In this document: positions 253 to 24,236 of the stretch, one piece after another
Numbering within the stretch: the first letter of the stretch is position 1
How the letters are laid out: each line of letters begins with the position of its first letter
IMG/VR virus record: IMGVR_UViG_3300028888_003544
Reading direction: 5' to 3' (one strand)
Length of the DNA stretch: 64,000 nt
DNA from: an uncultured virus (IMG/VR IMGVR_UViG_3300028888_003544)
Taxonomy: Duplodnaviria > Heunggongvirae > Uroviricota > Caudoviricetes
Position numbers and translations under genes: made by a program
The notes under the pieces: model-generated
Database searches by the model: none
What the model was told of the DNA's origin: nothing
What the model saw: only the letters and a program-made list of their open reading frames with translations

Positions 253-951
253 TTACAATTCCTTGAATGCCTCCAGCAGCATCTTCATACCCTCAGTGGC
301 TGTGGTTTTGAAGTGGGTGAAGCCCAAATGCGTGCATTGCTCCATCTCTCCTGGATCAATCACGAACTTGGGCACTTCATGGTGGGCATAGTTGATGAAC
401 CCTGCTGCCGGATAGACCTTCGGCGAGGTACCGATGACCACGAAGATGTCGGCCTTGCTCACGATGTCAATGGCAACATTCATGCTGTCAACATACTCAC
501 CAAACATCACGATATAGGGCCTCAGTTGCGAACCGTCCTCTGCCTTATCCCCCACCCTGATGGGCGTTGTCAGCGGATATTCCTTCACACATGTCGTGCG
601 GTTATCCATCGAGCAGACCTTGCTCAGTTCCCCATGCAGATGGATGACCCGTGTCGAGCCAGCCCGTTCGTGCAGGTTATCCACATTCTGCGTGATAACC
701 GTCACCTCATGCTCTTTCTCCAGTTCTGCTATCATGCGGTGAGCATCGTTCGGCTCCACCTCGGCCAGCTTTTTCCGTCTCCAATTATAGAAGTCAAGGC
801 ACTTCTGCGTCTCATTATAGAGGGCATCCGTACTGGCCAGGTGAACCCACTCCTCGTTAGTCCACATGCCATCCTTACCACGGAATGTACTCAATCCGCT
901 TTCGGCACTAACGCCCGCACCTGTCAGAAATACAATATGTTGTCGAGTCAT
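253..951 (-). CDS. cobB: Sir2/CobB-type NAD-dependent deacylase
   Basis: TGAGVSAESG, ITQNVDNLHERAG, HLHGEL, LRPYIVMFGE and IGTS motifs; start taken at MTRQ. Confidence 0.85.
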   Translation of the reverse strand: MTRQHIVFLTGAGVSAESGLSTFRGKDGMWTNEEWVHLASTDALYNETQKCLDFYNWRRKKLAEVEPNDAHRMIAELEKEHEVTVITQNVDNLHERAGSTRVIHLHGELSKVCSMDNRTTCVKEYPLTTPIRVGDKAEDGSQLRPYIVMFGEYVDSMNVAIDIVSKADIFVVIGTSPKVYPAAGFINYAHHEVPKFVIDPGEMEQCTHLGFTHFKTTATEGMKMLLEAFKEL

Positions 952-952
952 A

Positions 953-1147
953 TCACTCCATTTCGTCAGGACTGTCGTAAAACTCCATCGCTGCGAGGGC
1001 TTCATCATTATTGCTGAATTCAGAATCCTCTTCGAAGATTTCTTCCACTTCGTCAGCGACTTCTCTATTCTCCAGCTGCTCTATCTCCACCTTCTGTTTC
1101 TCGGGTGTAAACGAGCCAACCTTACCCGATTTTATTCTGTGTCTCAT
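953..1147 (-). CDS. Small acidic hypothetical protein
   Basis: MRHRIK... ORF fills the gap in the operon and ends next to the cobB start. Confidence 0.55.
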   Translation of the reverse strand: MRHRIKSGKVGSFTPEKQKVEIEQLENREVADEVEEIFEEDSEFSNNDEALAAMEFYDSPDEME

Positions 1148-1175
1148 AATTCCTATCTCCTGTTTAATACATTTG

Positions 1176-1721
1176 TTATGCTGCAAGCAGTAAAGCTGCG
1201 ATTGCTCCAAGCCCCTCTGCCGCAATTTTTCCAAGCCAACTGTCATCTGTCAGTTTATGTTCCACGATGTAGTCACGAAGTTTTAGGCGCCAGACTTTAT
1301 TCTGTAATAGTTCCCACAAATCATCATCAAAAGTCGCATAACTCACTTTCTCTTTTAGCCAGCGCTTTGATGGAGTCACACTTTCTTGTGGCTTATCCAT
1401 ATATTGTAAACGCCAGAACCCATCTGATTGAAGATGCCAAAACGGGTTTGAGATGTCTGCTGGCTTGTCAAACTGGGAGTTTCGAGTATATTGCTTCATC
1501 AGAGCAAGATACTTTTCTTCCAGCCAATCATTCAAGGTGAATTGGTTGGTCGTAAATACTCCGCCATCGACACCATCAATTAGGGCCAACAGTAACACCG
1601 GCTTGGCCACGATGACCTCACCATGTATCTTTGCCTGCCTTATGCTCATTATCCGCTTGGTATAATGTGCATAACATTGTTCGTAGTTATAGAAATGTAG
1701 TGTTCTATTCATATGCATCAT
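1176..1721 (-). CDS. Stand-alone ScoMcrA-like sulfur-binding-domain (SBD) protein, no HNH domain
   Basis: KPVLLLALID...NPFWHLQSDGFWRL resembles the N-terminal domain of phosphorothioate-dependent HNH nucleases. Confidence 0.6.
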   Translation of the reverse strand: MMHMNRTLHFYNYEQCYAHYTKRIMSIRQAKIHGEVIVAKPVLLLALIDGVDGGVFTTNQFTLNDWLEEKYLALMKQYTRNSQFDKPADISNPFWHLQSDGFWRLQYMDKPQESVTPSKRWLKEKVSYATFDDDLWELLQNKVWRLKLRDYIVEHKLTDDSWLGKIAAEGLGAIAALLLAA

Positions 1722-1951
1722 TATTTAATTTCTACCGAGCCATCTGCTTTTGTGTGTAACATACCAGATTGTTCGGCAAGGTCTAAGTCGCGAAGCGTTT
1801 CAAAGACCGACTTACCTGTACGTTGAGCCATATGACTGACAAGGAATGCCTTATTTTGGCTATTTACCCACTTACACTTCTCTTTCCAAAGATTTTCTTG
1901 AACTTCCCAGGGTTTGTATGCCATACTTCTTTCATTATAGTTTAATCCCAA
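1721..1951 (-). CDS. Hypothetical protein
   Basis: 76 aa; overlaps both neighbours. Confidence 0.6.
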   Translation of the reverse strand: MGLNYNERSMAYKPWEVQENLWKEKCKWVNSQNKAFLVSHMAQRTGKSVFETLRDLDLAEQSGMLHTKADGSVEIK

Positions 1952-2289
1952 CCTTCTTCGTCATTATTCTCCATATACCGGCTCATGCCATTGTCGTCCA
2001 TATCATCTTCTGATGCAGGATCGAAACCACGCATATTGTCATACTTCGTCGATTTGCTTGTATTTGAAGACGAAGAAGATGAATTCACTCGTGTAGACGG
2101 ATTCTCTTCTTCTTTTGATGATTCAATCTGAACGGAAATTGCTACTGTATCAGCCTGCGACTCTTCAGCTATAGGCAGACCATCAATAACCATCGGTTCC
2201 GTCTGCTTTTCTTTATTGCCACATGCCAGAAGAACTATACACGCAGATATTGCAATAAATGTCATCATCTTCTTCATCCCATCCATCAT
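1942..2289 (-). CDS. Putative lipoprotein
   Basis: KK + hydrophobic stretch + LLAC lipobox. Confidence 0.7.
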   Translation of the reverse strand: MMDGMKKMMTFIAISACIVLLACGNKEKQTEPMVIDGLPIAEESQADTVAISVQIESSKEEENPSTRVNSSSSSSNTSKSTKYDNMRGFDPASEDDMDDNGMSRYMENNDEEGWD

Positions 2290-4460
2290 ATCAAATCCTT
2301 AAAATACCCAAAGTCACCATCAACCAATATCCTTCGGTCGAGGCCAACATTTCTTTTCTCGCACGATGTCTCAGATACCATTGCACATGAGAAGCAAGCT
2401 GCATAATTCAACTGATCCTCGTTTTCCCAGCAGATTGGGTCTGAGGCACAGTTCATGGCCCTTTGCATTGCCTTACGAATAATATTCTCTATCAATTCAG
2501 GCTGACCTTGCCAAACCAATCCACCCATGCTTCCCTCTGCGCCATCCGTTGTATATATAAGTACTCCGCACATCCTGTCAGAGAAATACAGTCGTTCACT
2601 CATACTGGCAGTTGGATAACCACAAGAGAACTCCAGTTCCTTCATCAGAATATGTGAGAATGTGTGAAGTACTAAGAATCTTGCTATTCCTCCAAGCTTC
2701 ATCTCACGATAAATGCTCTCAAAGGTGTCGTCATGTTCATTCATAGCCTTATAATGCTCTTTGAACAAATCCTCGTGGCTGCTCATCCATGTCGACATGG
2801 TTTCTTCATTGAAGCTAAAGAAAAGACCCTCACCAAAGCTCTGAACCGCAGGCATCGTCAATACATCTTCTGGTGCTTCGCTGAATATCTTCATTCGATT
2901 GGGGTAATCAATTGTTCCATCGTCCTTCAATTCTGGCTGTGGCATACTGACACGCGAGAAATTAATCTGTGTATTACTTACGCCAAGCGTACTTACTTGT
3001 TGTATTTTGTGGAAGTAATGACGAAGAGGTTCTGGCAACTCAATATCATTGAATATCAGCTTGTCGTTAGATTCTAACGATTTGTTATTCTTTTGGAAGA
3101 CCTCAAATTCCTCGAATCTGTACTGTTCACGAACATCGCCAGATTCATCGCCTTTTCCCTCACCCAGAAACGCATTGATAACTTTTTGTGCTTCATCCTC
3201 GTTTAGTGTGTAGTCGCTGTCATCGGCCTTTGAAATAACATACTCAATAAGGCTGTCAAAGTCATCCTCAAAGCAATGTTCCGAATAATCCTGCTTAGTT
3301 GCCCCCGGATGCTTCTTTGTATATTTGTCAAACCACTTCTCTGTCATCAGTGTCAGCACCTTTTGCATCTTCTCATCCAGCACATTTGCTCCAGTCCTAT
3401 AATCATCAGGAATGTACAGGCTACTGAAGTTCTCTGCATAATAAACACTATTACTTGTCACCAATGCCCACTTCATGGTCGATCGTTTGTTCTTCTGCAT
3501 ACATGCTGCATAATCCTGCAGGCCAATCCCCTCCCATGGTTTGTCACCTGGGCACAATGGCTGTAGGTTCATGATACCTTCAAGGCTGACAGTCTTGCCA
3601 CAACATTTGCATTTAAGCATACCAAAGCTCTCAGTATGACTACGGTTCTCCAACCATTGCAGTTCGTGTTCACCATTATTATTCTCAGGGCAAGGGTCGC
3701 TTTCGTAGTTAAACAAATCGAAACCTTCTTCTGTCACCCGCTTCCCTTCATTGAGCTTTGCCGAGAAGTATTGTTGCCAAGGAATATCAGAGATATGCCC
3801 ATTAGGACAAATCAATACCATTGAAGACTGTTCCAACAGTTCATGGACTTTATTCTTCCCCTCTTGCAATCTTGAGTCATTTATTCTCCTATATGTTTTT
3901 GTATAAGGGTCACGTGGTGGAGCAAAATATCTGAGGTCACCGTTATTACAACCTTTTTCCTTCCATATTCTGATCCATTCCTCTACAGGCTTAAAGTCTT
4001 TTTTTGTACGTGAGAAGAACCAGCGGGGGAAAACAATGGCTGGAACAGTAAAAGTACTTTCCTCTAATTTACTGTTTGGATGTATTTCCTTGTATCTGAT
4101 GTTTGCTGGATGCTCATCCACGTTACAATTGTTGTAAGCGTCAAGGGAAATATGTGGAATAGCTACCAAACAACGCAGATGTGTCATTCCCTCTGTCGCA
4201 CGCAGGAACCCCACGAACCGATTGTCATCTATTATTTCGACTCCTGTTTCCTCAGAAACCTTAGAAGCATTCAGAAGTTCAGAACTATGCCTTTTCAAAT
4301 ACTCGGAGACAGCAGACACACTGCCCCATTTAGATGAGGTTAGTGGCATTACAAAGCCGCCCCATTTTGTAGCCACAATAGAGCCAACACCTGCATTTGA
4401 AGAAAGAACTTTGTACTTTCCAATGCCCTGATTGAATTGTCTTGTAGTCTTAATTTCCAT
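2286..4460 (-). CDS. drmB: DISARM DrmB-like DUF1998 protein
   Basis: GVGSI N-terminus, CPNGHISDIPW, LHTFSHILMKEL, GAEGSMGGL, CASDPIC...AACFSC...ETSCE. Confidence 0.85.
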   Translation of the reverse strand: MEIKTTRQFNQGIGKYKVLSSNAGVGSIVATKWGGFVMPLTSSKWGSVSAVSEYLKRHSSELLNASKVSEETGVEIIDDNRFVGFLRATEGMTHLRCLVAIPHISLDAYNNCNVDEHPANIRYKEIHPNSKLEESTFTVPAIVFPRWFFSRTKKDFKPVEEWIRIWKEKGCNNGDLRYFAPPRDPYTKTYRRINDSRLQEGKNKVHELLEQSSMVLICPNGHISDIPWQQYFSAKLNEGKRVTEEGFDLFNYESDPCPENNNGEHELQWLENRSHTESFGMLKCKCCGKTVSLEGIMNLQPLCPGDKPWEGIGLQDYAACMQKNKRSTMKWALVTSNSVYYAENFSSLYIPDDYRTGANVLDEKMQKVLTLMTEKWFDKYTKKHPGATKQDYSEHCFEDDFDSLIEYVISKADDSDYTLNEDEAQKVINAFLGEGKGDESGDVREQYRFEEFEVFQKNNKSLESNDKLIFNDIELPEPLRHYFHKIQQVSTLGVSNTQINFSRVSMPQPELKDDGTIDYPNRMKIFSEAPEDVLTMPAVQSFGEGLFFSFNEETMSTWMSSHEDLFKEHYKAMNEHDDTFESIYREMKLGGIARFLVLHTFSHILMKELEFSCGYPTASMSERLYFSDRMCGVLIYTTDGAEGSMGGLVWQGQPELIENIIRKAMQRAMNCASDPICWENEDQLNYAACFSCAMVSETSCEKRNVGLDRRILVDGDFGYFKDLI

Positions 4461-7400
4461 CGTTTCCTACTCTTATATGAAGCACAGCTTCTGGTTCAAC
4501 AATACGTAGCGACTGTGGTACTGTCCATAGGTTATCACCATTGGATTCGTCATATCCTGCAGGGATGCTAAACAATGCCGCAGCATTTTGATACTGGGTC
4601 GAATTGTACACCAACCCATCTACTTCATTGGCTTTAGCCTCCCACTGACCTATAGCTTCATCAACAAACCGAATAATATTGTCTCTCAGTTCTGGGGTGA
4701 GAAGGCCTTTTTCCAACTGGCTAATCTCCGGCTTTTGCATTCTCTCATATCGCTGGTTGAAGTAATCAGCCACCATTTGTTTAATCTGGTCGCTCAGATT
4801 GCTTTCATTGATTTTGCTGGCACTATTACGATCGGCAAGCTTATCATAGGAGTGTCTCACTATAGCTGCCAAATACAATGCAAGGTATTTCTCAACAGAT
4901 TTCTTAGAGAATGGCGTTATTGAAATTGGCTCAACATAAAAATACAGCTTTTCGTGGAACTCCCTGAACTTCTCATAGTGTGATACATCTCTCGAACGGA
5001 AAGGATTGTGAAGAGTCAGTACAAGTCCTTTCTGCTCACGAGCCACACGGGAACTAGCCTGAATGTACTCGGCAATGTTTCTTGGCATGGAGTTCATGAT
5101 AATGGTGTTAAACCTACTGACATCCAAGCCAACAGAAATCATGTTGGTAGCTAAAATGTAGTCTGGGGGAGTGCTCCCTTTAACCCATTCTCCATTCTCT
5201 TTATGAGGCAGTCGTTTCTCAATGCTCCAATCCTGACCTACCTCTGCAAATTTTTCATTTACCTCAGCACCAGTCAGGCGACCAGACAATTCTGCCTCAC
5301 TCAGCTCGTTCATTGAGTAAAAGCACTCTAACAGATTCCCAAATGGCATAACGCGCTTGAATAAGCGGCGCACATACTTTGAATACTCTGTATAGAACAG
5401 CGCATCCGTCTTACCAACCTCCTTCAGACTGTTGAAGTAGGATATAACCGAATAGTAGTTGTTAGCGGCAAATTCAAATCCTGAATCACGTGAGTGCTCT
5501 GCTTCGAAAATAGCTCTATGTACTAACAGTATCGCGGCAAGACGCATCTGTGTTGTCATTTGCGTTCTGCCTGTCGGCATAATTCCGATGTATTTACGCT
5601 TCGATATATATTTCTCCTGACCATCCTTCTTCTCTCTCTTGTAAAAGGCAAAGAAAGAATCATCATAGTCAACTCCATTATGGGGGAAAATATTTAAATC
5701 CCTGTCATACAAGGCTCGAATCTGCAAATCTGTATTGCGAGTCGTGGCAGTAGAGGAAATAATTTTGGGCCTTGTTCCGTCTTTTCGTGTACATAGTTGG
5801 TCAATAGCGCATTCAAAAAGGCTAACTGCTGAACCTAATGGACCTAGCAACAAATGTAACTCATCTTGGATAATGAGATCTGGCGGAAGACAATTAATGC
5901 CATGCCCGAAAATACGGCGAGAGTCTTTGTTCTCTTCTTTTGGTTTTGTAGATACTCTATGTGCTATAGCTGCAAATTTATCAACAGTACCGAACAATAA
6001 GGTTGGCGGTTCTTTGTAGATGTGCTCATCGCAAAGGCGTACAGGCAACTCGTCAGAGAATGTACATGTGTCATTTGCATTCGAACAGAAATATAACTTC
6101 TTCTTTTGTGAATATCTCAGTTTTGAACCGCACCAGGGACATCGGTCTAAAGGAATCTTTGTCTTATTCTCACCGTCCTCTCGACGGTCCCATTTTATGG
6201 ACTCATCATCCAGTCCATCCTTTCCGTCAACTTTGTTCGGAAGGGAATTGGAACCCACATATAAACCTATAGAGATAGGCTTTGCGCCTAAATCGAATTC
6301 TTCTTTTTTCTTACCCCATCTTCGCATCTGTTCCAAAGCCAAGATGAGTCGCAATGCTCTCTGAAATTGTTGAGTCGTCAGCAGACGAAGTGTATATCTC
6401 ATTATCGCAGCAACTCCATATCCTTGTTCACCATGCATCCTGCGTCGATAGATAATGCACAGCGCAATGATTCCAAGGTAGGCCTCAGTCTTACCACCAC
6501 CAGTTGGAAACCAAACCAGATCAACTAAGTCATTACGCTTTTTCCAACCATTATCTTGTGGATGGTTGATGATACCATCAAGATTTAACAAGATAAAAGC
6601 CAACTGGAAAGGTCGCCATGCGGCATGTGGAGAAGAAGGGAATATGTTATCTTGGGCTTGTTTATAGAAGTTTTCGTTCAAATTTGGGTCGTCATCAATG
6701 ATTATTTTCTGATTATCCTTCTTGTTATGCCATAGTTGCATAAACATGGCAGAATTCATCAATCTGAAACAGCGCATATTCTCTTTATTAATGGAGAGAA
6801 TATTGTCAACATTATCTTTCATGCGCTGCATATCACTTTTGCATTTAGATAGATTATCCAATGCAAACACCCTGTCATTTACATCTGTAATACGTGCTTC
6901 ATTTTGAGCAATCCAATCCTCATATAGACCTATGAAATTCTTTAATCCGGAAATTATCTCAGGGTCATTGGCCTCAGAAAATGTGGATAAGTACTTAAAC
7001 TGAAGACATCTGTCATCAGTTAAATATGGTTGGGGAATAATCATGTCCCCCTTTTCAATATATTCACTATACTTTTTCCTGGGAACAGGTTCTATGTCTG
7101 GAGTTTCAAAAGAGGGGATAAATTCAGACCAGATGTGATTAACTTTCCCATCCGCATCCTTTTCCCAATCAACAGAACAGAGGTGTCCCACTCCATAATC
7201 ATTAATGGAACGATATAGGAAATTCAATTTATCCTCGTCTTTCTTGACATCTTTGTAAGCATTGCCTTCGTGATACGGGCACAGGAACTTACTCTTAAGA
7301 TCAATATGGATTCCGAAGAAACATAGTTTGTTAACTTCTTCATTTACAATTGAAAAATAGTTCTTTGGAGATTCACGGAATGGTGAGGAATCGTTCACAA

Positions 7401-8559
7401 TCAAAACCTTTAGATATAGGTTTTGGTCTGTCTTGTCCTTACTATTTCTTGTCACTTGCAACCAAGCCGACAATGCGACATTTTTACCTTCCTCCAAGTC
7501 TACGGAATAGAAATGGTTTAATGTATCATTGTCTTTTGGCTTAAATATCTGTTTAGCAACATTACTACTTTCTGGCTTTATTCCTTCCAGATTTAAAGTC
7601 GTACTGAAATCATGGGATTGCCAGAAACCAAAACCTTTATGGTCATAAAGCTCTATAAGGTTATCAAAATAGGACAGGAACGTTTCATACATTTCAACTT
7701 TATTAAGTTGATTAAGGACTCGCTGTTTTTCTTCATCTGTGAGATATAATGGTATATCGTGGTCGTCACTGTCTTTTTCATAATGAATATGATTAAGATA
7801 CTTGTTGAAAAGAACCTCACGATATGAAAGTAAGAATCTGTAATTTGGGGGAATCTGAGTAAAAATTGGGTCAGTCTCACCCTCAATAACGGCTAACTTC
7901 GCTGCACAATTCATATTCATTGTACGAAGCATGTCCTTAACCTGTGATACATTCTTGTTAGGAATTGGATATATTTTAAGCTTACCGTCGTTATAGTTGA
8001 AATATTGGTGAAGAATAGGATTCTCTTTAAAGAACTGCTCAAACTGAGTAAGATGGTTGCTTACTAAGACCTGAACCCTTTGCTTATCACCGCGGACAAT
8101 TTTGGTATAATATCTTCCCGAGACAGTTATTTCCACATCTTTCGATAAACTTGCCTCTGGAACCAAGCAACATGAGATTCCTACTGTATTAGGAAATCTT
8201 CTGCTTAAAGAATAGACATCTTCATCATCTACTTCATTTCCTAAATCTCCATTCTGTTCGTTACTATCAGTGCGCAGAAGTTCATCGTCATCTTCCTGAC
8301 CATTTGTTGATACAGTTTCATCGTCAATATCTGCTTCCTCTGATGAATCTTGTGAGGCAAACATGCCCTGAGCCTTGGGTGGGAAAAGTACTGCCGTGCT
8401 ATAAATCGAACCAGGAGTAGTGTTAATCACTTCACCATCGAATGATTGGCCCTCTTCCATTTCTATGGAAAAACGTCCTCTACACCCATTGGGGCCTATC
8501 ATTTGTTCACGGATGAAAGACTCCAAAGATTCTCTTTTAATATCAATTATGTTATTCAT
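4450..8559 (-). CDS. drmA: DISARM DrmA-like SF2 helicase
   Basis: WRPFQLAF, WFPTGGGKTEAY, RYTLRLLTTQQFQR, IIQDELHLL, ATNMISVGLDV, YIQASSRVAR; overlaps drmB. Confidence 0.85.
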   Translation of the reverse strand: MNNIIDIKRESLESFIREQMIGPNGCRGRFSIEMEEGQSFDGEVINTTPGSIYSTAVLFPPKAQGMFASQDSSEEADIDDETVSTNGQEDDDELLRTDSNEQNGDLGNEVDDEDVYSLSRRFPNTVGISCCLVPEASLSKDVEITVSGRYYTKIVRGDKQRVQVLVSNHLTQFEQFFKENPILHQYFNYNDGKLKIYPIPNKNVSQVKDMLRTMNMNCAAKLAVIEGETDPIFTQIPPNYRFLLSYREVLFNKYLNHIHYEKDSDDHDIPLYLTDEEKQRVLNQLNKVEMYETFLSYFDNLIELYDHKGFGFWQSHDFSTTLNLEGIKPESSNVAKQIFKPKDNDTLNHFYSVDLEEGKNVALSAWLQVTRNSKDKTDQNLYLKVLIVNDSSPFRESPKNYFSIVNEEVNKLCFFGIHIDLKSKFLCPYHEGNAYKDVKKDEDKLNFLYRSINDYGVGHLCSVDWEKDADGKVNHIWSEFIPSFETPDIEPVPRKKYSEYIEKGDMIIPQPYLTDDRCLQFKYLSTFSEANDPEIISGLKNFIGLYEDWIAQNEARITDVNDRVFALDNLSKCKSDMQRMKDNVDNILSINKENMRCFRLMNSAMFMQLWHNKKDNQKIIIDDDPNLNENFYKQAQDNIFPSSPHAAWRPFQLAFILLNLDGIINHPQDNGWKKRNDLVDLVWFPTGGGKTEAYLGIIALCIIYRRRMHGEQGYGVAAIMRYTLRLLTTQQFQRALRLILALEQMRRWGKKKEEFDLGAKPISIGLYVGSNSLPNKVDGKDGLDDESIKWDRREDGENKTKIPLDRCPWCGSKLRYSQKKKLYFCSNANDTCTFSDELPVRLCDEHIYKEPPTLLFGTVDKFAAIAHRVSTKPKEENKDSRRIFGHGINCLPPDLIIQDELHLLLGPLGSAVSLFECAIDQLCTRKDGTRPKIISSTATTRNTDLQIRALYDRDLNIFPHNGVDYDDSFFAFYKREKKDGQEKYISKRKYIGIMPTGRTQMTTQMRLAAILLVHRAIFEAEHSRDSGFEFAANNYYSVISYFNSLKEVGKTDALFYTEYSKYVRRLFKRVMPFGNLLECFYSMNELSEAELSGRLTGAEVNEKFAEVGQDWSIEKRLPHKENGEWVKGSTPPDYILATNMISVGLDVSRFNTIIMNSMPRNIAEYIQASSRVAREQKGLVLTLHNPFRSRDVSHYEKFREFHEKLYFYVEPISITPFSKKSVEKYLALYLAAIVRHSYDKLADRNSASKINESNLSDQIKQMVADYFNQRYERMQKPEISQLEKGLLTPELRDNIIRFVDEAIGQWEAKANEVDGLVYNSTQYQNAAALFSIPAGYDESNGDNLWTVPQSLRIVEPEAVLHIRVGNDGN

Positions 8560-8560
8560 A

Positions 8561-10984
8561 TCATGTTATAGTTACGACGTTATTCATTTTTATTTCATTG
8601 CGAAGTAATGATTGCAAAGTGGCTAAGTCGCCAACATTGCGGAGGTTTAGCAGATCATTTATATCACTATCTTTATAGTCATCGAACAAATCTTCATCAA
8701 CATCTGCCAACAAAGTGTCTTGGAGGAATTGATCCATCATGCTGTTGAATCTCCTTGTGCCGTTTTTCGTAGCAGCCTTCTTACTCCTCATTATTGAAAG
8801 ATACGGGGATATAAGTCCAAACCCTAAATACTCAAAGAGCTTCTGTTGACAAACCTTTTGTAAAGGCAGAATCATATTTGAATCTAAATCGGCCCAATGG
8901 CAGAATTGGCTCTTTTGTATTCTATTTGACTCTTTCAATCCCTTCATGACAGAATCATATGCATTGTCAAGCCCCTCTTTTTCTATCTTTTTTGAGAGAA
9001 GAATTTTCCACAAAATAATCGATGAGTCACGCTCTTCCTCAGTGATTTTACCTAATTTGTATTGCGATTCCCGAATTACCTTTTCGCGGAAATCATCCTT
9101 TTCTGATTGTAAATCTATAAAAGACTTAAGCTCGTTTGCGACATCATCCAATTTCTGCAACCTTTTAATGTCTTGGAGAATCCCCTTTTTCTTTATTTCA
9201 GTTAGTCGGTCTATTTGTGTTATCCCATTATCTGTTTCGTAGATTACGAAGTCTGTCTCAGGAATATTGAATTTACTGCCATCATCAAATTCTCCCTTGA
9301 CATATACAACAGCTCGCGATGTGCTGCGTTCATCACTAAATTCGTATTCACCCTTAGTTCTTCTTATAGAAGGCTTAACAGGACGTGGCACTTTGCCAAA
9401 AAGTGTGTTTCTTAGTTCTGAATCCAACAAATCTGCTTTATATTTATCGTAGTCGTATTTATCCCATTCATACATGTCATTAAACGCTACTCCTTGTATA
9501 ATGTCATGAATGAACTGGTCTTTACGTACAGGTATAGGGTCAAAAGAATTTGGGAACTTTGCATATGACTCTCTGACATAATGCGGGCGATATTGCAGAA
9601 CAATTACACGATTTTCTTTAATAGCATTATTCCCGTTTATTGGCTTTAAAGCAGAGTAGTCATAATACTTCACCTCTAATCGTGGAGAATATTCCTGTAG
9701 GCAAGTTGTTAATGCTCTTTTCATGGACAAATCAATGCTCTTATCCAATACTATAGCTATTTTTAGTTTTTCTCCAAACTCATCTCGTGTTTTGCTCCTT
9801 ATCAGTTTTTCCTTAATGATACAATTATGAATTATCGGTTTAACTGCCTTGGTGGCTCTTTCTAGTTGCCATTCTATTGACATTTGATAGTCATCGTCGT
9901 TATAATCAGGAAAAGATTTGTGAAGATAACTTGAGTATAGAGATATAAGTTCGTCACTTAGGCATAAAGAGAAACGGTTACGCTCTTGAATCCTGTATTC
10001 CGATTCATCAAGTAACGAACCAAGCACATCAGAAAACAGTAACTGGTCATCAGGGATAAAAATGTGCTCATATGAATTGTTCCTACAAAACATATAGTTG
10101 CTCTCTTCCTCGTCGAAAGTAATGTAATGGGGGTATTGGTAGAATTCTTTTTCACTTACCATGGGGAATTTCCGACAGAAGCCAATCCCTTTACTTATAG
10201 AATGACGAAGATGGAAAGGCTTTTTTGAGAAAGCAAAGACGAAACAGTTCTTTAACCCCATCTTGTATGCCGTATTCCAGCGTTCGAGTGAGCTTTCTTC
10301 TAACGAATTGACTTTGTCGTTATTCGTATAGAACACAAAAAGGTTATCCACCATAACATACTCATCATCTCTTTTGTGCTCTCTAAGCTGGTCTCGTATA
10401 TCGTCAGCATCGAGATTATGGCACATAATCAAGTTCTTTTCAGTAAAGAGGTTGTCGGTTTCACCATAGAACTCAGAGATGAATTTATGCTTATCAGCTC
10501 TGGATACTTGCAAATCTCCTTCTCCGCAAATTATTATGTTCTTGTGTCCTTTCTCGCCAGAATAATTATCTGTTATACTACCCAATGTTTCTCGGATGTA
10601 TTTAGCACATGGGACAGCGTACTGTTTCATGTGTTTTTCGTCTTCTTTTGTTCGAAGTACGATATTACGCATAGACGCAGCTCTTCTTTTAAGAAGCTCT
10701 CTATTATCATCGTTGTAATACAAAGATAACTTTAGAATAAGGAATTTCAACCACACTTCGCGAGCCCATTCTGGGGCATGTGGCATATAGATGATTGGGA
10801 AACAGATTTCTCCATCTTCTGCCTTCCTATTCATATAATAATCCACAATGCTGTTCATCACGTTTATGAATCGACGAGCCGATTCCTTTTGTGTATGAAC
10901 CATTGCATTGATGATGGAATCGACCTCTGCAGATGATTGGTTGGCAATATTTTTAAATTCTTCTGTCATAGGAGCCGATATCAA
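8561..10984 (-). CDS. DrmE-like protein of unknown function
   Basis: 807 aa directly upstream of drmA, the position and size of class II drmE; C-terminal WK.LL...W......P pattern recalls DrmE. Confidence 0.5.
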   Translation of the reverse strand: MISAPMTEEFKNIANQSSAEVDSIINAMVHTQKESARRFINVMNSIVDYYMNRKAEDGEICFPIIYMPHAPEWAREVWLKFLILKLSLYYNDDNRELLKRRAASMRNIVLRTKEDEKHMKQYAVPCAKYIRETLGSITDNYSGEKGHKNIIICGEGDLQVSRADKHKFISEFYGETDNLFTEKNLIMCHNLDADDIRDQLREHKRDDEYVMVDNLFVFYTNNDKVNSLEESSLERWNTAYKMGLKNCFVFAFSKKPFHLRHSISKGIGFCRKFPMVSEKEFYQYPHYITFDEEESNYMFCRNNSYEHIFIPDDQLLFSDVLGSLLDESEYRIQERNRFSLCLSDELISLYSSYLHKSFPDYNDDDYQMSIEWQLERATKAVKPIIHNCIIKEKLIRSKTRDEFGEKLKIAIVLDKSIDLSMKRALTTCLQEYSPRLEVKYYDYSALKPINGNNAIKENRVIVLQYRPHYVRESYAKFPNSFDPIPVRKDQFIHDIIQGVAFNDMYEWDKYDYDKYKADLLDSELRNTLFGKVPRPVKPSIRRTKGEYEFSDERSTSRAVVYVKGEFDDGSKFNIPETDFVIYETDNGITQIDRLTEIKKKGILQDIKRLQKLDDVANELKSFIDLQSEKDDFREKVIRESQYKLGKITEEERDSSIILWKILLSKKIEKEGLDNAYDSVMKGLKESNRIQKSQFCHWADLDSNMILPLQKVCQQKLFEYLGFGLISPYLSIMRSKKAATKNGTRRFNSMMDQFLQDTLLADVDEDLFDDYKDSDINDLLNLRNVGDLATLQSLLRNEIKMNNVVTIT

Positions 10985-12723
10985 TTTGACGAGTTAACTT
11001 TGTCAAGAAGTAATATTTCAAGATCAAACATTGCACGAGTCATTCCGACATACAGTTCAAACTTGTCTATTTCTTCCCGGTTGTTTAACACTAATAGCAC
11101 ATGCTTTGTTTCAAGCCCTTTGTAGGACAAAATTGTAGTTAAACACAACCTGTCTTCTTCATATCTGACATTCTCGGGCTTTAATTCTTTTATAAGTTCA
11201 ATATCAGAAAGACGTTCAAATAGTTGCTTGTTATGGGAGTCCGTCAGAACTACATACTCTGACCATTTCTTTTCCCCACTTCTCAAATCTGTTAGGAGGG
11301 CCTTTATATGCTTTACCAATTCGTTAGTCCCTTGGTAGTGATGTATTTTTATAGCAGGGTCATTACTTCCCTCAATATCTCTTATTATTATGGAAGTCTG
11401 TGTTCCGTCTTCACTTTCCAAGATCTTGTTGGCTTCATCAACGATCTGCTTATTATTAGGAACTCTTTTGTTCTCATTCAAAACGAAATGGGTTCCATAT
11501 CGCGAAATGTCTTCCGCGTAACTATCTAATTCTCGAATGTCTTTTCTATATCCTTGCTCAGTATCAAAGAAAACAAGGTATCTACCTGTTCCAAGACCAT
11601 TACCGTTTATAGATGTAAGTGAATTTAGGACTTCCGCAGCCCCTTTGTCAAAAATGTCTTGCGCTTCATCAATGACAATAAAATCATATGGGATAAAGTC
11701 ATCTGATTCGCGAAGTGTGTCAAACAGTCGCTTCATTTTCTCAATAAGGGATGAAGAACCTTCCTGAAAATCATCGAAGGTGACAAACTTGTGAATTGGG
11801 TCCAGTTTCGATATAAATGAAATAAACTGATATACCTCGCAATTCTCCAGCCCGACCTTTAACAGCTGGTTGCGTACCGTCGCTGCCAGAAGATTATTCC
11901 AGCAAATATAAACGCCCCGTAAGGACTTGTATCTGCGGATAAATGCTTTCGCTATGGTTGTTTTACCAGTACCAGGGCCTCCCTCGATAATAATGCGATT
12001 GTTTTTTTCCAGACTCTTGAATGTATCGAGATTCTGAATGTTCAGCCAGTCAAGAATGCTTTGGTAACTGGTTTCTGTATAGCTGAAATCAGGGCGAATA
12101 TTTGCGACCAGATGATGAATCGCAATATCTACCTCATTTGGCTTCAAATCCTCAGTAAACCAATGTTTTCTCTCTTTGTCAATGCTAAGTACAGATAGAC
12201 AGAACTCAGCAAAAGACTCTGATTGATTCTCCTGTTGGTATGCAGACCATAATTTATATCCCATATCTAACTTGGGAAGATGGTTCGTGTGAGCCATCTT
12301 TGTGTGCGGGAACGCACATACCGTGTCTATAAAGATTTGGCTGCTATTAATAATCTTGTTGTTCAGCAACGCATATTTGTAGTCTTCAGCTTGCTGGAAA
12401 GGCGACCTGTCCATAGTCATCCCGTCTCCTTTGCTAAAGAAGAACTGACCATTTTGGATACCAACGTTACCACCTTTTACTTCAACAACGAGTGCCCCTT
12501 TTTCACATACTAAGAAGAAATCAATTTGAATTTCGGATTGTCTGCTATTACCAATGGGCAAACGCAAATCATGCCAAAAATGCCAGGTAAGATTGCTCTT
12601 TTCACAATCTTTCCATATCCTGCGATACATGTCTATTTCACCATATAATGGTGTTCCATCATTATGTTTGATGATGGTTTCCAAATTGTTCAGGTTTTTA
12701 TAGTCATGACTTATTATTGGCAT
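10981..12723 (-). CDS. NERD nuclease fused to SF1 (UvrD/DUF2075-like) helicase
   Basis: QIDFFLV...VVEVKGG...PFQQA; GGPGTGKT, IDEAQD, SYKGLE, YVGMTRA. Confidence 0.85.
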   Translation of the reverse strand: MPIISHDYKNLNNLETIIKHNDGTPLYGEIDMYRRIWKDCEKSNLTWHFWHDLRLPIGNSRQSEIQIDFFLVCEKGALVVEVKGGNVGIQNGQFFFSKGDGMTMDRSPFQQAEDYKYALLNNKIINSSQIFIDTVCAFPHTKMAHTNHLPKLDMGYKLWSAYQQENQSESFAEFCLSVLSIDKERKHWFTEDLKPNEVDIAIHHLVANIRPDFSYTETSYQSILDWLNIQNLDTFKSLEKNNRIIIEGGPGTGKTTIAKAFIRRYKSLRGVYICWNNLLAATVRNQLLKVGLENCEVYQFISFISKLDPIHKFVTFDDFQEGSSSLIEKMKRLFDTLRESDDFIPYDFIVIDEAQDIFDKGAAEVLNSLTSINGNGLGTGRYLVFFDTEQGYRKDIRELDSYAEDISRYGTHFVLNENKRVPNNKQIVDEANKILESEDGTQTSIIIRDIEGSNDPAIKIHHYQGTNELVKHIKALLTDLRSGEKKWSEYVVLTDSHNKQLFERLSDIELIKELKPENVRYEEDRLCLTTILSYKGLETKHVLLVLNNREEIDKFELYVGMTRAMFDLEILLLDKVNSSN

Positions 12724-12736
12724 ATCTCAATTTTCT

Positions 12737-14149
12737 TTACTCCCAAAGTTTGGGATCTTTTAAGTTAGACATCTTATAGTTAAACATCTCAAGTAGTTCC
12801 TCTCGATGTTCAGGAAACATCTCCAGTGTATCAAGTAGCGTCTGCAAGGTTTTGCAAATTTTTCGCACTTTACCTCGCGAATCTTCTCTATCGTAATATC
12901 CCGTTTCATAATCCCGTTGGAACTCTTCAAATGGCTTTATGGGCTTAAGAACTTCAAAACCTGCGCCTTGTTCCCAGAACGTTTGGTTACGATAAGAATA
13001 TTCCCAGAACGACATCTTCTTGTAGAAGGCCTGCTGATTACACCAGCGGGCGATTTGAATGTACAAGTTTGAAATCGGAGCGTTGTGGTAGTCTTCATGA
13101 CGCATTAGGTAACCTACACAACCGTAGGTCATCAGCACCTTGATGCGCTGGAAGATTTCCCATATATCACGATAGAATTTCTGATAACCTTGCTCTGTTT
13201 GTTTAAATCCGCAGAACAGGTAGAATTTTGTACCCTTCTTGGGATTGTAATGCTTCCAGATCTTTAAGGCTCTTTCTATTAGTGGACGGTCTTTCCAATT
13301 ATCAAAGGCAAAGATAAAGTCACCATGATACTTCGTTTTTGAGAGCATCTCGGCCATTTCCGCACCATGAGGACTTTGTGCCAGCATACGCTCGTCAAGC
13401 CCTTGACGGAACTGAAAAGGTCGTCCCGTGTCTATCAGCTGTTGCAGTCTGGCACGCCAAATGGCAGGGTCGGCTGCAAGGAAGTTATCATCCCACAGAT
13501 AGATATAGGGGCGCACCAATCGACCTTGCTCATCACGTTCTTCATCAAGGAACCATTCAAGGTCGGAATACGGGAAGATTTTGTCTTCTAACTTGTTGAT
13601 GCAGAATGGGCAATGACGGATACAACCACGAGTAAGGAAGCCTATACTATACTGCTGATAGTCCTTATACTTCTCACGCTTTATACCCTCAGCCACCTTG
13701 CGGTCAACAAATGAATCGTAAAGATGGTAGAAAGGCATCTGGCGAGCAAGATCTATACCATTCTTTCGAGGACCACCACGATGATTGGGATATTGGCAAA
13801 GGAACTCGTCTCGTTCTAACTGAGTCATATCGTCATCACGCTTCTGACGGTAGATGTTCACGTTCAGTTCGTTGGCATAGAAGCCCGTGCCACCTCTGCG
13901 GAATTTACGCTTCTGGGCGGGCGTAGCATTCTCATAGAACGCTGGCATCTGGGTGAACGTGAACACGCGGGATATATAGATTAGTTTGTAAGGTGTGATA
14001 TCCTCGTTCTGATCAATAATCAGTTTGAAGTCAATGCCGTTGTCATTTAGGAATCCTGCCAGTTTCATCAAGACAAGATTAGGGTGCCGCGTCCCGTTGC
14101 AAAGCAGGTCGGCATCCACAAGTCCTATCTTGAGTTTCTTTTTTGGCAT
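12737..14149 (-). CDS. Radical SAM protein with an N-terminal B12-binding-like domain
   Basis: TRGCIRHCPFC (CxxxCxxC), WDDNFL, N-terminal IGLVDAD...PNLVLMKL and GGTG. Confidence 0.8.
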   Translation of the reverse strand: MPKKKLKIGLVDADLLCNGTRHPNLVLMKLAGFLNDNGIDFKLIIDQNEDITPYKLIYISRVFTFTQMPAFYENATPAQKRKFRRGGTGFYANELNVNIYRQKRDDDMTQLERDEFLCQYPNHRGGPRKNGIDLARQMPFYHLYDSFVDRKVAEGIKREKYKDYQQYSIGFLTRGCIRHCPFCINKLEDKIFPYSDLEWFLDEERDEQGRLVRPYIYLWDDNFLAADPAIWRARLQQLIDTGRPFQFRQGLDERMLAQSPHGAEMAEMLSKTKYHGDFIFAFDNWKDRPLIERALKIWKHYNPKKGTKFYLFCGFKQTEQGYQKFYRDIWEIFQRIKVLMTYGCVGYLMRHEDYHNAPISNLYIQIARWCNQQAFYKKMSFWEYSYRNQTFWEQGAGFEVLKPIKPFEEFQRDYETGYYDREDSRGKVRKICKTLQTLLDTLEMFPEHREELLEMFNYKMSNLKDPKLWE

Positions 14150-14155
14150 ATTGGG

Positions 14156-14413
14156 TTAGTTCATTACAAGGTCGCCCTTGTGCAGACACACAAGATAATT
14201 ATCGTCAATCAGTACCAGTGCATCCGTTTCAGGGACTGACCACTCCGCAAGCTCACCAAAACCCATATCTTTTGCTTCACAAGCCTGCACTTCTCGCCAA
14301 CCCTTCGTGTTAGCCAATTGCTCCAATGTCTTAGCGGTTTCTTCCTCCACCAAATCCATCAGGCAACTCCACTCTTGATACATTCCACCTACGGGTATTG
14401 TCAGATTCTTCAT
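14156..14413 (-). CDS. Hypothetical protein
   Basis: 85 aa, tightly spaced in the operon. Confidence 0.6.
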   Translation of the reverse strand: MKNLTIPVGGMYQEWSCLMDLVEEETAKTLEQLANTKGWREVQACEAKDMGFGELAEWSVPETDALVLIDDNYLVCLHKGDLVMN

Positions 14414-14418
14414 ATAGT

Positions 14419-14643
14419 TTATTCGTTTTTATCAAGTTCTTCATACCTGACGAGGTCTTTTAGTTCCACGTCAAGTAACCTGGTTATTTTCATCAACATC
14501 TCTAATGGAGGCTGTGATGAGTTAGTACACCACTTAGATACAGTTGTTGGCGAGCATCCCAACTCTTTGGATAGCCAAAGATTGGACTTCTTCTTCTCCA
14601 CCAGTATCACTTTTAAGCGATTGAGGTCTTTGTTAGCAGCCAT
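14419..14643 (-). CDS. XRE-family HTH regulator heading the defence operon
   Basis: NRLKVILVEK...WLSKELG...TVSKWCTNSSQP, typical Bacteroidota RM-linked HTH. Confidence 0.9.
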   Translation of the reverse strand: MAANKDLNRLKVILVEKKKSNLWLSKELGCSPTTVSKWCTNSSQPPLEMLMKITRLLDVELKDLVRYEELDKNE

Positions 14644-14894
14644 AACTTCTATTATATAATCGCCACAAAGTTACGAACTTTATTCTAAAAAAACGACTTA
14701 ACGGCTAAATAATTTGAGAAATTTAATGAAAAAAGTTCATTTTATCGATGTAAACAGGCCAAAACCGTAAAGCCTCGCCATCTTCTCAGACAACGAGGCC
14801 CGTTTGAGGTTCCAAATAGTCGGCCAAAACTTAATGTTACCAACCTCGGCAGGATACGTCTAATTTTGTAACGGTTGAGAACCGTTTTTATTGC

Positions 14895-14934
14895 AAAAAA
14901 GAGGGCTGGCAGCTCTCGTTGTCTGTCAGTCCTC
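14895..14934 (-). terminator. Intrinsic terminator after the HU-like gene
   Basis: GAGGACTGACAG/CTGCCAGCCCTC stem followed by T6 on the minus strand. Confidence 0.6.
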
Positions 14935-15031
14935 AATAGAGATGAATTGCTTACCACTAGATTTGTTGGCTTCAGCCGACTGATGTCGCGACTCGACCAA
15001 ACAAGCAAGCTTGATGGTTCTCACTGCTTCA

Positions 15032-16087
15032 TCAGTTCTGGTCGACGTAGTCCCACTCGTCAGGCTCGGAGTTAATCTCCAGCACCGTGCCCTTGGTCGG
15101 CATCTGGAACGAACCGGTGTAGGTTCCGTCGTTCTCAGTCAGCGGGATGCGGTTGCCGTTGACTTTCGCAATGGGCTCCTTGCCCTCAACTGGCACGACG
15201 CTGATGTTCACGTTAGAGCCGGAATGCACGTTGTCGTTGCTGTTGATCTCCTGCTCGCTGTCATCCGTCACGGTTGACGTACCATTGCCATACTTGTAGA
15301 TGACCAGCCTGTAGTCACCCTCGGTACCGCTTTGCGAACCACTGTTGCCGCTGGAATTGCCACCCGTCGAGCCACCAGTGTTGGTGCCTGAACCGCTGTT
15401 ACTACCTGAGTTAGTAGAACCACCGTTGGTGCTACCACCATTCTGAGTGCCACTACCGCTGTTCTGAGAACCGCCAGTGTTGCTACCGCTCTGCGAAGAG
15501 CCGTTGCCACTGGTTCCACCGTTCTGAGAAGTACTACCTTCCTCGCCAGTGCCCTCGTCTTCGGCCTGTGCAATGCCCCAAGCTGAGAGTGGAGTGCGCA
15601 AGGTGTACGACTTCTCCTTGCCGCCGATAACCTTCTTGATGGTCTCAACAAGGTAGGCGAACTGCAATGAGCACTGGTCCTTGAACTTCTTCGAAGTGAT
15701 CTCCTCACCCTGGGCATTCTCAGGGATAAAGACGAAATTCACACCAGCCACCATGTTGTTGACACCCTTCTGAAGGGCTTCCTCGATAGAGGCAGCACCA
15801 CCTGTAACAGAAGTGACTGTCGGACGGAAAGTGCCAAGGCCATCGAGCTTGACGGGCTGACCCTGTGACATGTACTCTTTCAAGCACTTCACGATACCAG
15901 CCAAAACCATCTGCATCAGCTCGTAGCTCACCAGCGTACCACCGTGGTCACTGACGTGCTTGGCGAAGCCCTTGGTTGACAGCGTTTCCTTACTCTCGGC
16001 CTCTGGGTAATAGCGACCGAACATGTCTGAATCTGGAACTGTGTTCTTACGCAGATTCACCATGAAAGCAATGTTTTCTTTTGCCAT
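15032..16087 (-). CDS. HU-family DNA-binding domain + G/S/N/T linker + C-terminal beta-rich (InlB-B-repeat-like) domain
   Basis: GQPVKLDGLGTFRP HU signature; low-complexity linker; GNGTSTV...GSNVNISVVP...F.MP. Confidence 0.7.
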   Translation of the reverse strand: MAKENIAFMVNLRKNTVPDSDMFGRYYPEAESKETLSTKGFAKHVSDHGGTLVSYELMQMVLAGIVKCLKEYMSQGQPVKLDGLGTFRPTVTSVTGGAASIEEALQKGVNNMVAGVNFVFIPENAQGEEITSKKFKDQCSLQFAYLVETIKKVIGGKEKSYTLRTPLSAWGIAQAEDEGTGEEGSTSQNGGTSGNGSSQSGSNTGGSQNSGSGTQNGGSTNGGSTNSGSNSGSGTNTGGSTGGNSSGNSGSQSGTEGDYRLVIYKYGNGTSTVTDDSEQEINSNDNVHSGSNVNISVVPVEGKEPIAKVNGNRIPLTENDGTYTGSFQMPTKGTVLEINSEPDEWDYVDQN

Positions 16088-16291
16088 GATAAAAACCTTT
16101 TAATTGTTAAACCTGAAAAAATCTTTTTACCTTTACTAAGGTGTTACAAAGGTACGCTTTTTTCGGCAAAGGTGCAAGATTTTGTTCCGTCTCAATCCTC
16201 TTATATCCACTTACTGTAACTTATTGATACTAAGCGCAATTTTTCTAACAAAACATTTGGTAGTTTCAGTAATTTTTAGTAATTTTGCACT

Positions 16292-22482: not shown

Positions 22483-22498
22483 AACGTCTTTAATTTAA

Positions 22499-22560
22499 AA
22501 GGTAATTGACTGACAGGAACAGAACCACAATCTATTTTGAAGTATGTCAGCCTTGACCTT
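22499..22560 (-). ncRNA. Y-RNA-like hairpin, copy 2
   Basis: AAGGUCAAGG-CUGACA-UACUUC...UGUCAG-UCAAUUACCUU; covaries with the copy at 22701. Confidence 0.6.
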
Positions 22561-22576
22561 GTTAATAATGTTCTTG

Positions 22577-22697: not shown

Positions 22698-22700
22698 ATA

Positions 22701-22778: not shown

Positions 22779-22782
22779 TATT

Positions 22783-22875: not shown

Positions 22876-22882
22876 ACCGTTT

Positions 22883-24190: not shown

Positions 24191-24236
24191 TGGAAAAAAG
24201 TTATGAAAATCAGCAAAAAAAGTGCAAATTTTTAGT

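What the first reader, a model, noticed from the sequence alone, without database searches (positions are those of the whole stretch)
2286..14643. DISARM class II-like operon with a radical-SAM enzyme and no DNA methyltransferase
Seen: XRE, small ORF, radical SAM, NERD-helicase, 807-aa ORF, drmA, drmB, all within about 13 bp of each other or overlapping. No C5 or N6 MTase motifs and no PLD (DrmC) gene are present. Known: DISARM uses DrmMI or DrmMII to mark self DNA, and B12-dependent radical-SAM enzymes methylate unactivated carbons. Inference: the radical-SAM protein installs a non-canonical self mark read by DrmAB, making this an undescribed restriction-modification variant.
Basis: partly seen in the sequence, partly recalled or inferred. 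Interest (0 to 1): 0.8.

Follow-up and report, generated by a model that had tools for sequence, protein, structure and literature searches.

The report
Radical-SAM enzyme heading DISARM-like defence
A gut-bacterial anti-phage operon of the DISARM type carries an unstudied iron-sulfur 'radical SAM' enzyme where its closest relative carries a DNA methylase, and the same enzyme heads three other unrelated DNA-restriction modules, so it probably writes a chemically new 'self' mark on DNA.

Summary
The operon is real as described: XRE, an 85-aa ORF, radical SAM (rSAM), NERD-helicase, an 807-aa ORF, DrmA and DrmB, with gaps of -11 to +13 bp and no methylase or DrmC gene. The 807-aa protein is a remote DrmE homologue. 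The rSAM folds like class I cobalamin-dependent rSAM enzymes.

In 60 of 66 genome loci the rSAM is followed directly by one of four unrelated restriction-type modules: NERD/DrmE/DrmA/DrmB (28), DndFGH (17), ParB-nuclease-SNF2-ParB (13) or PbeA/PbeC (2). Its tree needs 15 module switches. The sister DrmA lineage (one genome) has the same module with a C5 methylase in the rSAM slot. Phage homologues often sit beside DNA methylases.

Best reading (0.55): the rSAM modifies host DNA as a self mark that damps these effectors. The chemistry is unknown; cobalamin-dependent C-methylation is the lead.

Against: DrmE/DrmA/DrmB modules often have no marker gene at all; 5 of 66 rSAM genes are frameshifted, at least two beside full-length DndFGH; and AprD4, a tied fold match, binds no cobalamin. 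Ten literature searches found no description of this system.

The parts
14419..14643 (-). XRE/Cro-type HTH regulator, 74 aa; probable autoregulator (inference); not constant across loci
   Evidence: Pfam HTH_26 E 1.6e-9; XRE cluster in 14 of 78 loci
14156..14413 (-). 85-aa protein of unknown function; travels with the rSAM rather than with the effector
   Evidence: No family hit; cluster in 11 of 78 loci, upstream of the rSAM in DrmAB-type and DndFGH-type loci (L043, L044)
12737..14149 (-). Radical SAM enzyme, 470 aa: N-terminal cobalamin-binding-like Rossmann domain plus CxxxCxxC barrel (C176, C180, C183); proposed DNA-modifying 'writer'
   Evidence: PHROG 9298 E 8e-35; model pLDDT 95.9; MgmA Z 14.7 (rmsd 3.8, 301 aligned), AprD4 Z 14.0, MiaB Z 13.1; conservation; contexts
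10981..12723 (-). NERD (PD-(D/E)xK-type) nuclease fused to an SF1/UvrD-like helicase, 580 aa; candidate nuclease in place of DrmC (inference)
   Evidence: NERD E 1e-12, AAA_19 E 2e-8; GGPGTGKT and DEAQD motifs; absent in L040
8561..10984 (-). DrmE-like protein, 807 aa (probable ATG start at 10969): degenerate SF2-helicase-like fold with a C-terminal domain homologous to DrmE_C
   Evidence: No direct Pfam or PADLOC hit; ESM Atlas DrmE_C clusters at 0.97; hhalign probability 96.1, E 2.8e-9 against DrmE_C-bearing proteins, reversed control 0.5; SF2-like fold at modest Z 8.9 or less; no GK[TS] Walker A match
4450..8559 (-). DrmA SF2 helicase, 1369 aa
   Evidence: PADLOC DrmA E 2.6e-176; TGGGKT, DELH and QASSR motifs
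2286..4460 (-). DrmB (DUF1998/MZB), 724 aa
   Evidence: NF038324 above cut-off; Pfam MZB

Best explanation
The operon is a class 2 DISARM-like restriction module (DrmE-like, DrmA, DrmB and a NERD nuclease-helicase, without DrmC) whose modification slot is filled by a one-gene radical-SAM cassette. The rSAM most likely cleaves SAM at its [4Fe-4S] cluster and modifies host DNA. The lead chemistry is cobalamin-dependent C-methylation of a carbon that ordinary methylases cannot reach; I give it about half of the weight within this model, and other radical chemistry the rest. The mark lowers activation of DrmAB on self DNA. Unmarked invading DNA with 5' overhangs activates DrmAB, and the NERD-helicase degrades it. 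Shown: gene content, fold, linkage, module swapping and slot exchange with a C5 methylase. From the literature: DrmAB activation by unmethylated 5'-overhang DNA. Inferred: DNA as substrate, cobalamin use, the nature of the mark, read-out by DrmAB and the role of NERD.
For: (1) In 60 of 66 genome loci the rSAM is followed, co-oriented and mostly within 30 bp, by DrmE/A/B (28), DndFGH (17), ParB-nuclease-SNF2-ParB (13) or PbeA/PbeC (2). DISARM, DndFGH and Pbe are known partners of methylation or phosphorothioation (PMC9142583, PMC10853773). (2) The rSAM tree needs 15 module changes against a minimum of 3. L002 (DndFGH) has an rSAM 87% identical to the window's, whereas L041 has 97-99% identical effectors but a 67% identical rSAM. 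(3) L131 reads C5 methylase-NERD-DrmE-like-DrmA-DrmB; its DrmA is sister to the rSAM clade (SH-aLRT 100) and its genome has no rSAM match. (4) No DndC or DndD reached the cut-off in 5 of 5 rSAM-DndFGH genomes. (5) In 17 of 44 dereplicated phage groups the homologue directly adjoins a DNA methylase, and 9 of 44 carry a SAM-synthetase-like gene. One homologue is fused to a C5-methylase fragment. (6) The top folds are mostly class I cobalamin-dependent rSAM enzymes and MiaB/RimO.
Against: At least 6 of 17 other Bacteroidales DrmB loci (L120, L122, L123, L125, L126, L130), and also L081 and L085, carry the DrmE-like/DrmA/DrmB module with no adjacent modification gene. Class 1 DISARM shows no autoimmunity without its methylases (10.1101/2021.12.28.474362), and DndFGH is argued to be stand-alone (PMC10853773). 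Five of 66 rSAM genes are frameshifted, L025 and L028 beside full-length DndFGH. AprD4 ties with MgmA in fold and binds no cobalamin (PMC12931638). In phages the rSAM accompanies methylases instead of replacing them. Four of 5 DrmAB-type genomes have C5 methylases elsewhere, and L073, L080 and L057 have a methylase within a few kb. The slot exchange rests on one genome, with a long-branch warning. The DndC/DndD searches had no positive control over cut-off, and several genomes are MAGs.
Confidence: 0.55

Rival explanations
1. The rSAM is an attacking or sensing component, not a self-marker: it damages or converts invader DNA or nucleotides (Ophion- or viperin-like) and is an accessory to restriction modules that work on their own.
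For: The modules occur without any marker gene. Frameshifted rSAM beside intact DndFGH is apparently tolerated. An rSAM is essential in the Ophion defence system (10.1101/2025.09.30.679545, passages). Homologues carry extra domains: a C-terminal c9 domain in 11 of 270 searched, and an N-terminal extension in some.
Against: Phages carry the family inside their own methylase clusters, often near the terminase genes, where genome-protecting genes are expected. A C5 methylase fills the same slot in L131. The rSAM stays intact where the effectors have decayed (L008, L077, L110), as methylases do in decaying R-M systems (from my own knowledge).
Confidence: 0.2
2. The rSAM does modify DNA, perhaps by further modifying a base already methylated by a methylase elsewhere, but DrmAB does not read the mark. 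It is a protective, anti-restriction gene that shares a promoter with autonomous effectors.
For: It adjoins methylases in 17 of 44 phage groups and is fused to a C5-methylase fragment in P0323. C5 methylases exist elsewhere in 4 of 5 genomes. The effectors occur without markers.
Against: G006, which carries a 95-97% identical operon, gave no C5-methylase match (MAG, adenine methylases not searched). The rSAM pairs tightly and repeatedly only with DNA-restriction-type modules.
Confidence: 0.17
3. The rSAM is only the anchor gene of an insertion hotspot on mobile elements, with a substrate other than nucleic acid; defence modules land behind its promoter.
For: A constant gene followed by variable defence cargo is what hotspots look like; one lineage sits in a prophage (L077/L078, L110).
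Against: Upstream neighbours vary freely. The cargo is limited to DNA-restriction types (61 of 62 informative loci). The ParB/SNF2 module recurs with an rSAM only 38% identical (L147). The c9 domain is either a separate gene of the modules or fused to the rSAM.
Confidence: 0.08

Closest known systems
Class 2 DISARM (drmE, drmA, drmB, drmC, drmMII), as described in 10.1101/2021.12.28.474362 and PMC9142583
   Same: DrmA and DrmB, and a remote DrmE homologue directly upstream of DrmA; a first gene in the modification position
   Different: No DrmMII and no DrmC; an added NERD-SF1 helicase; an rSAM in the methylase slot; DrmA scores below the NCBIfam equivalog cut-off
DndFGH and PbeABCD/CxC-ABC systems (PMC10853773)
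   Same: The same rSAM family heads DndFGH (17 loci) and PbeA/PbeC (2 loci); the paper reports cytosine methylases replacing phosphorothioation in CxC systems
   Different: These genes are not in this window. The paper's main text mentions radical SAM only for DndC; its supplement could not be read
Class I cobalamin-dependent radical SAM enzymes (MgmA/QCMT 9ccb, TsrM, OxsB, TokK) and AprD4
   Same: N-terminal Rossmann-type domain plus CxxxCxxC barrel; Z 9-15
   Different: 11-14% identity; no sequence hit in the PDB; the passages I read of the review PMC12931638 name no DNA-modifying member; cobalamin binding is untested
PHROG 9298 phage radical SAM proteins
   Same: Same family (E 8e-35); phage members often lie among DNA methylases
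   Different: Function unknown; the phage members are shorter (about 290-400 aa) and mostly 25-41% identical
Dpd (7-deazaguanine) and BRIGADE systems (10.1101/2025.09.15.676423)
   Same: A YprA-family helicase paired with non-methylase DNA modification; the conceptual precedent
   Different: No DpdA-like gene; the helicase is split into DrmA and DrmB; the putative writer is a single rSAM
Ophion (10.1101/2025.09.30.679545)
   Same: An rSAM in a defence operon
   Different: Ophion is rSAM + PHP + PRTase with no helicase; neither partner is present here

Membership tests
DISARM class 2 | DrmA helicase | tested here: met
   PADLOC DrmA E 2.6e-176; NCBIfam DrmAS 733 bits, under its 950 cut-off
DISARM class 2 | DrmB (DUF1998) as a separate adjacent gene | tested here: met
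   NF038324 290.5 bits against a cut-off of 240
DISARM class 2 | DrmC PLD nuclease | tested here: not met
   No PLD hit in the operon or the next four genes; no recurrent gene after DrmB in full-length loci L067-L074, L080, L216, L217. DrmC is reported dispensable (PMC9142583)
DISARM class 2 | DrmMII C5 methylase | tested here: not met
   No hit in the operon; motif scans of the window and 78 loci found no C5 methylase in a DrmAB-type operon, only a lone motif I at the edge of L073
DISARM class 2 | DrmE (occasional member) | tested here: met
   Remote only: no direct Pfam hit; Atlas 0.97 to DrmE_C clusters; hhalign 96.1%, E 2.8e-9
DISARM class 2 | Anti-phage activity with self-marking | not testable with these tools
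   Needs experiments
Class I cobalamin-dependent radical SAM | CxxxCxxC radical SAM barrel | tested here: met
   C176/C180/C183 in 71 of 73 distant and all 58 close rows; fold
Class I cobalamin-dependent radical SAM | N-terminal Rossmann-type domain | tested here: met
   Model range 7-390 aligns with MgmA 3-407, Z 14.7, rmsd 3.8
Class I cobalamin-dependent radical SAM | Cobalamin binding and methyl transfer | not testable with these tools
   AprD4, which binds no cobalamin (PMC12931638), ties at Z 14.0
Methylthiotransferases (MiaB/RimO) | Three further conserved Cys for an auxiliary cluster in the N-terminal domain (feature recalled) | tested here: not met
   The only N-terminal Cys (C17, C118) are kept in 1% or less of distant homologues
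ARMADA / TALON (10.1101/2025.09.15.676423) | BrxHII-like helicase plus PglX-like methylase (ARMADA); TPR-CSD and TBP genes (TALON) | tested here: not met
   No such genes in the operon
Dpd / BRIGADE | DpdA-type deazaguanine-inserting gene in the locus | tested here: not met
   No DpdA-type PADLOC or NCBIfam hit among the 17 window proteins scanned; only weak DpdJ cross-hits on DrmA
Ophion | rSAM with PHP and PRTase genes | tested here: not met
   No PHP or PRTase hit in the operon

The most novel reading that the evidence does not exclude
This rSAM family is a one-gene, general-purpose DNA 'writer'. It installs a mark outside the known bacterial repertoire (for example a cobalamin-derived methyl on an unactivated base or deoxyribose carbon) that can stand in for 5mC and phosphorothioate as the self signal of DrmAB, DndFGH and Pbe. 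Phages carry the same family to shield their genomes.
Probability: 0.35. Interest if true: 0.93.

Novelty: new variant of a known kind. Interest (0 to 1): 0.8.

Why it matters
If the enzyme marks DNA, it would add a new class of bacterial epigenetic chemistry beside methylation, phosphorothioation and deazaguanines, made by a single gene and possibly tied to vitamin B12 supply in anaerobic gut bacteria. It would also make an open question testable: how DrmAB, DndFGH and Pbe tell self from non-self, given that they often lack their canonical marker. The same rSAM is paired with each of them, and a methylase-bearing sister locus gives a natural swap experiment. A cultured isolate's genome carries the family with DndFGH (Paraprevotella clara YIT 11840, L031).

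Tried and rejected
No whole genome is held for the window, so methylases elsewhere in this very genome could not be searched; close genomes were used instead. Pfam, NCBIfam, PADLOC and the PDB sequence search do not recognise the rSAM. Single-sequence profile comparisons of the 807-aa family with four ~800-aa genes upstream of other DrmAs were not significant; only profile against profile linked it to DrmE_C. The 801-aa gene of L089 (DrmMII-801aa-DrmA-DrmB) shows no detectable likeness to it. The converse survey for DndF gave 0 of 401 genomes with no control ringing, so it is uninformative. Searches for more methylase-bearing orthologues of L131 found none: its family gave only distant DrmB hits, and viral contigs and plasmids gave nothing. 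The NERD search of 201 relatives returned only loci already known. The promoter scan was at chance level, 37 against 36.9. RNA-library contigs from 4 studies lie on 21-28 of 30 bins of window 900-16200, but contigs cannot show transcription or strand, so this is not used as support. PLD genes occur elsewhere in 5 of 5 genomes, which is uninformative. My first methylase motif scan missed the degenerate motif IV of the L131 enzyme, so I widened it and rescanned; motif scans remain weaker than HMMs. I rejected a methylthiotransferase role (no auxiliary Cys) and membership of the downstream lipoprotein, SBD-like and Sir2 genes (not conserved). No complex was predicted.
Full report
OBSERVATION. The operon is 40% GC against 50% for 20-54 kb of the window. 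DrmA, DrmB, the NERD-helicase and the XRE are confirmed by family profiles, and no operon gene hits a methylase or PLD family. No whole genome is held. Homologues are mostly from Bacteroidales, and runs holding the DNA are mostly labelled as animal gut metagenomes.

THE RADICAL SAM PROTEIN. It is invisible to Pfam, NCBIfam, PADLOC and PDB sequence search, but matches PHROG 9298 (E 8e-35) and Atlas clusters named radical SAM (0.99). The family is large: 4816 hits among 8000 candidates scored, and 932 representatives at 50% clustering. A model from 131 sequences has pLDDT 95.9. Its best structural matches cover both domains: MgmA Z 14.7 (rmsd 3.8, 301 aligned), AprD4 14.0, MiaB and RimO 13.1, OxsB 11.4, TsrM 10.7 (Foldseek lists the same enzymes). 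Only the CxxxCxxC cysteines are broadly conserved, which argues against an auxiliary cluster and so against methylthiolation. The review PMC12931638 (passages) places QCMT (9CCB), TsrM, TokK and OxsB in class I of the B12-dependent enzymes and notes that AprD4 does not bind cobalamin. The fold therefore suggests cobalamin chemistry without proving it.

THE 807-AA PROTEIN. Its model (pLDDT 88) resembles SF2 helicases weakly, and no Walker A motif was matched. The Atlas links it to DrmE_C clusters (0.97; 21 of 30 hits). I built a profile of 14 proteins lying upstream of other DrmAs; 9 of them were scanned and 5 hit Pfam DrmE_C (one above cut-off). That profile aligns with the C-terminus of the 807-aa family at probability 96.1, E 2.8e-9; the reversed control gave 0.5. 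It is a remote DrmE.

CONTEXT OF THE rSAM. In the 66 genome loci fetched with the rSAM as query (54-98% identical, so close relatives only), the gene directly downstream defines: NERD/DrmE/DrmA/DrmB in 28 (21 reach DrmA, 6 end at a contig edge, L008 is decayed; L040 lacks NERD); DndF-DndG-DndH in 17; ParB-like, small PD-(D/E)xK-like, SNF2, ParB-like and c9 in 13; c9-PbeA-PbeC in 2; c9 plus GmrSD in 1; a disrupted locus in 1; contig ends in 2; and fragments in 2. Gaps are mostly under 30 bp. With the 807-aa protein as query, 8 of 10 metagenome loci show the rSAM and the other 2 are too short. A quick tree of 55 full-length rSAMs (12 broken, partial or edge loci left out) needs 15 module changes against a minimum of 3 and a shuffled mean of 24; starred branches force at least 9 for the DrmAB type. 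The rSAM is thus the constant part and the effector is exchanged. The c9 domain, a separate gene in the ParB/SNF2 and Pbe types, is fused to the rSAM in 11 of 270 homologues; I read it as a winged-helix DNA-binding domain by appearance and weak DUF7226 hits, which is inference.

THE CONVERSE TEST. DrmB was found in 17 of 401 sampled Bacteroidales genomes, and only the centre genome G006 was also among the 17 with an rSAM match. I read 17 loci from the other 16 genomes. Three have a C5 methylase in the operon (L117, L119, L131). L132 has a type I R-M-like cluster directly upstream, and L128 a few kb away. At least six have no marker gene beside the module, and the rest are too short to judge. 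L131 is the key case: C5 methylase (PF00145 E 2e-36), NERD (35%), the 807-aa homologue (E 2e-25), DrmA (42%) and DrmB (37%), in the same order. On a 41-row DrmA tree the 19 rSAM-type proteins form one clade (99) with L131 as sister (100), though with a long-branch warning, and most of that clade was ascertained through the rSAM. G577, the genome of L131, has no rSAM match. For DndFGH, none of 5 genomes has DndC or DndD over cut-off (no positive control).

PHAGES. Of at least 512 viral matches the best 80 were kept. I analysed 78 of them, in 44 groups at 80% identity. In 17 of 44 the rSAM directly adjoins a gene of the N4/N6 or C5 methylase clusters, in 21 of 44 one lies within 5 kb, and 9 of 44 have a SAM-synthetase-like gene. 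I ran no background count for phage genes in general. Phage PV036431 has it between two methylases. One homologue is fused to a C5-methylase fragment and one carries a LAGLIDADG insertion.

RESULTS AGAINST. Marker-less DrmE/DrmA/DrmB modules are common, so the missing methylase alone proves nothing. Five of 66 rSAM genes are frameshifted: L025, L027 and L028 at the same poly-G run (8, 7 and 10 G), L061 at a TA repeat and L009 by a deletion. L025 and L028 keep full-length DndFGH. This may be phase variation, assembly error or true dispensability. It fits reports that class 1 DISARM shows no autoimmunity without methylases (10.1101/2021.12.28.474362, passages) and that DndFGH can stand alone (PMC10853773, section 25). 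The first of these papers also states that loss of DrmMII was deleterious in class 2. The reverse pattern, an intact rSAM with decayed effectors, also occurs (L008, L077, L110). Four of 5 DrmAB-type genomes have C5 methylases elsewhere; G006 has none detected. Methylases lie within a few kb in L057, L073 and L080.

MECHANISM. DrmAB loads on 5'-overhang DNA, and its ATPase is damped by methylation, with a single base contact (PMC9142583, passages). A sensor of this kind could plausibly be damped by another small mark (inference). I give 0.55 to the rSAM writing such a self mark, 0.20 to an attacking role, 0.17 to a DNA mark not read by DrmAB, and 0.08 to a passenger role.

LITERATURE. Ten searches found no description of this rSAM family with DISARM, DndFGH or Pbe; the library lacks most subscription papers. 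What I saw of each paper: PMC10853773, abstract, passages and sections 11, 16, 25, supplement unreadable. 10.1101/2025.09.15.676423, abstract and passages, where the only 'radical' is 'radically' and which notes many uncharacterised DISARM-like classes; its 4 supplementary files, at least one cut short, have no 'radical', 'rSAM' or 'DrmE'. PMC9142583, 10.1101/2021.12.28.474362, PMC12931638 and 10.1101/2025.09.30.679545, passages. 10.64898/2026.10.19.760177 and PMC7641849, passages, not relevant. The original DISARM paper was not read. Earlier scan notes describe rSAM genes in methylase slots of other modules. They are unchecked, gave no sequence look-alike, and are not counted as support.

VERDICT. 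This is a DISARM class 2 variant that fails the DrmMII and DrmC tests, headed by a mobile rSAM cassette that probably modifies DNA. Interest 0.8.

Noticed in passing
L025:8975-8995, L027:3045-3060, L028:10358-10375: Three rSAM genes of the DndFGH type are frameshifted at the same poly-G run (8, 7 and 10 G); all three genes with 7 or more G at this site are out of frame. Possible phase variation, or assembly error.
   Followed up: partly
window 37528-47238 (-): 3236-aa methylase/SNF2 helicase gene with PRTase, nucleotidyltransferase and MutS_I domains, in a conjugative-element region.
   Followed up: partly
window 1176-1721 (-): Stand-alone 181-aa protein resembling the sulfur-binding domain of phosphorothioate-dependent restriction enzymes (NF045808 E 7e-9), without its nuclease; not conserved with the operon.
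   Followed up: partly
window 20218-25327: Prok-RING/TerD-like 754-aa gene, RtcB and a WYL-like regulator: an RNA-repair or stress cluster.
   Followed up: no
L026, L034, L035, L037, L048-L051, L056-L058, L061, L063, L147: rSAM + ParB-like + small PD-(D/E)xK-like + SNF2 + ParB-like + c9 operon; matches no PADLOC system as a whole and recurs with a 38%-identical rSAM.
   Followed up: partly
L023, L030, L035-L037, L063 (rSAM N-terminus): A 160-aa N-terminal extension on some rSAMs with no family hit; it looks like a PUA/EVE-type base reader by eye (recalled, untested).
   Followed up: partly
L120, L122, L123, L125, L126, L130, L081, L085: DrmE-like/DrmA/DrmB three-gene modules with neither methylase nor DrmC are common in Bacteroidota; DrmE is split in two genes in L118, L120, L123 and L132.
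   Followed up: partly
window 54436-63799: AT-rich stretch (33-41% GC) with two WYL-like regulators and several short proteins that look like inactive uracil-DNA-glycosylase-fold or nuclease genes (by eye); possible defence island.
   Followed up: no
L024:1470-7332 and L044; L022, L077: Other unannotated conserved clusters lie next to rSAM loci (1175-aa P-loop protein with 324-, 315- and 139-aa genes; a vWA-containing 590-aa gene).
   Followed up: no
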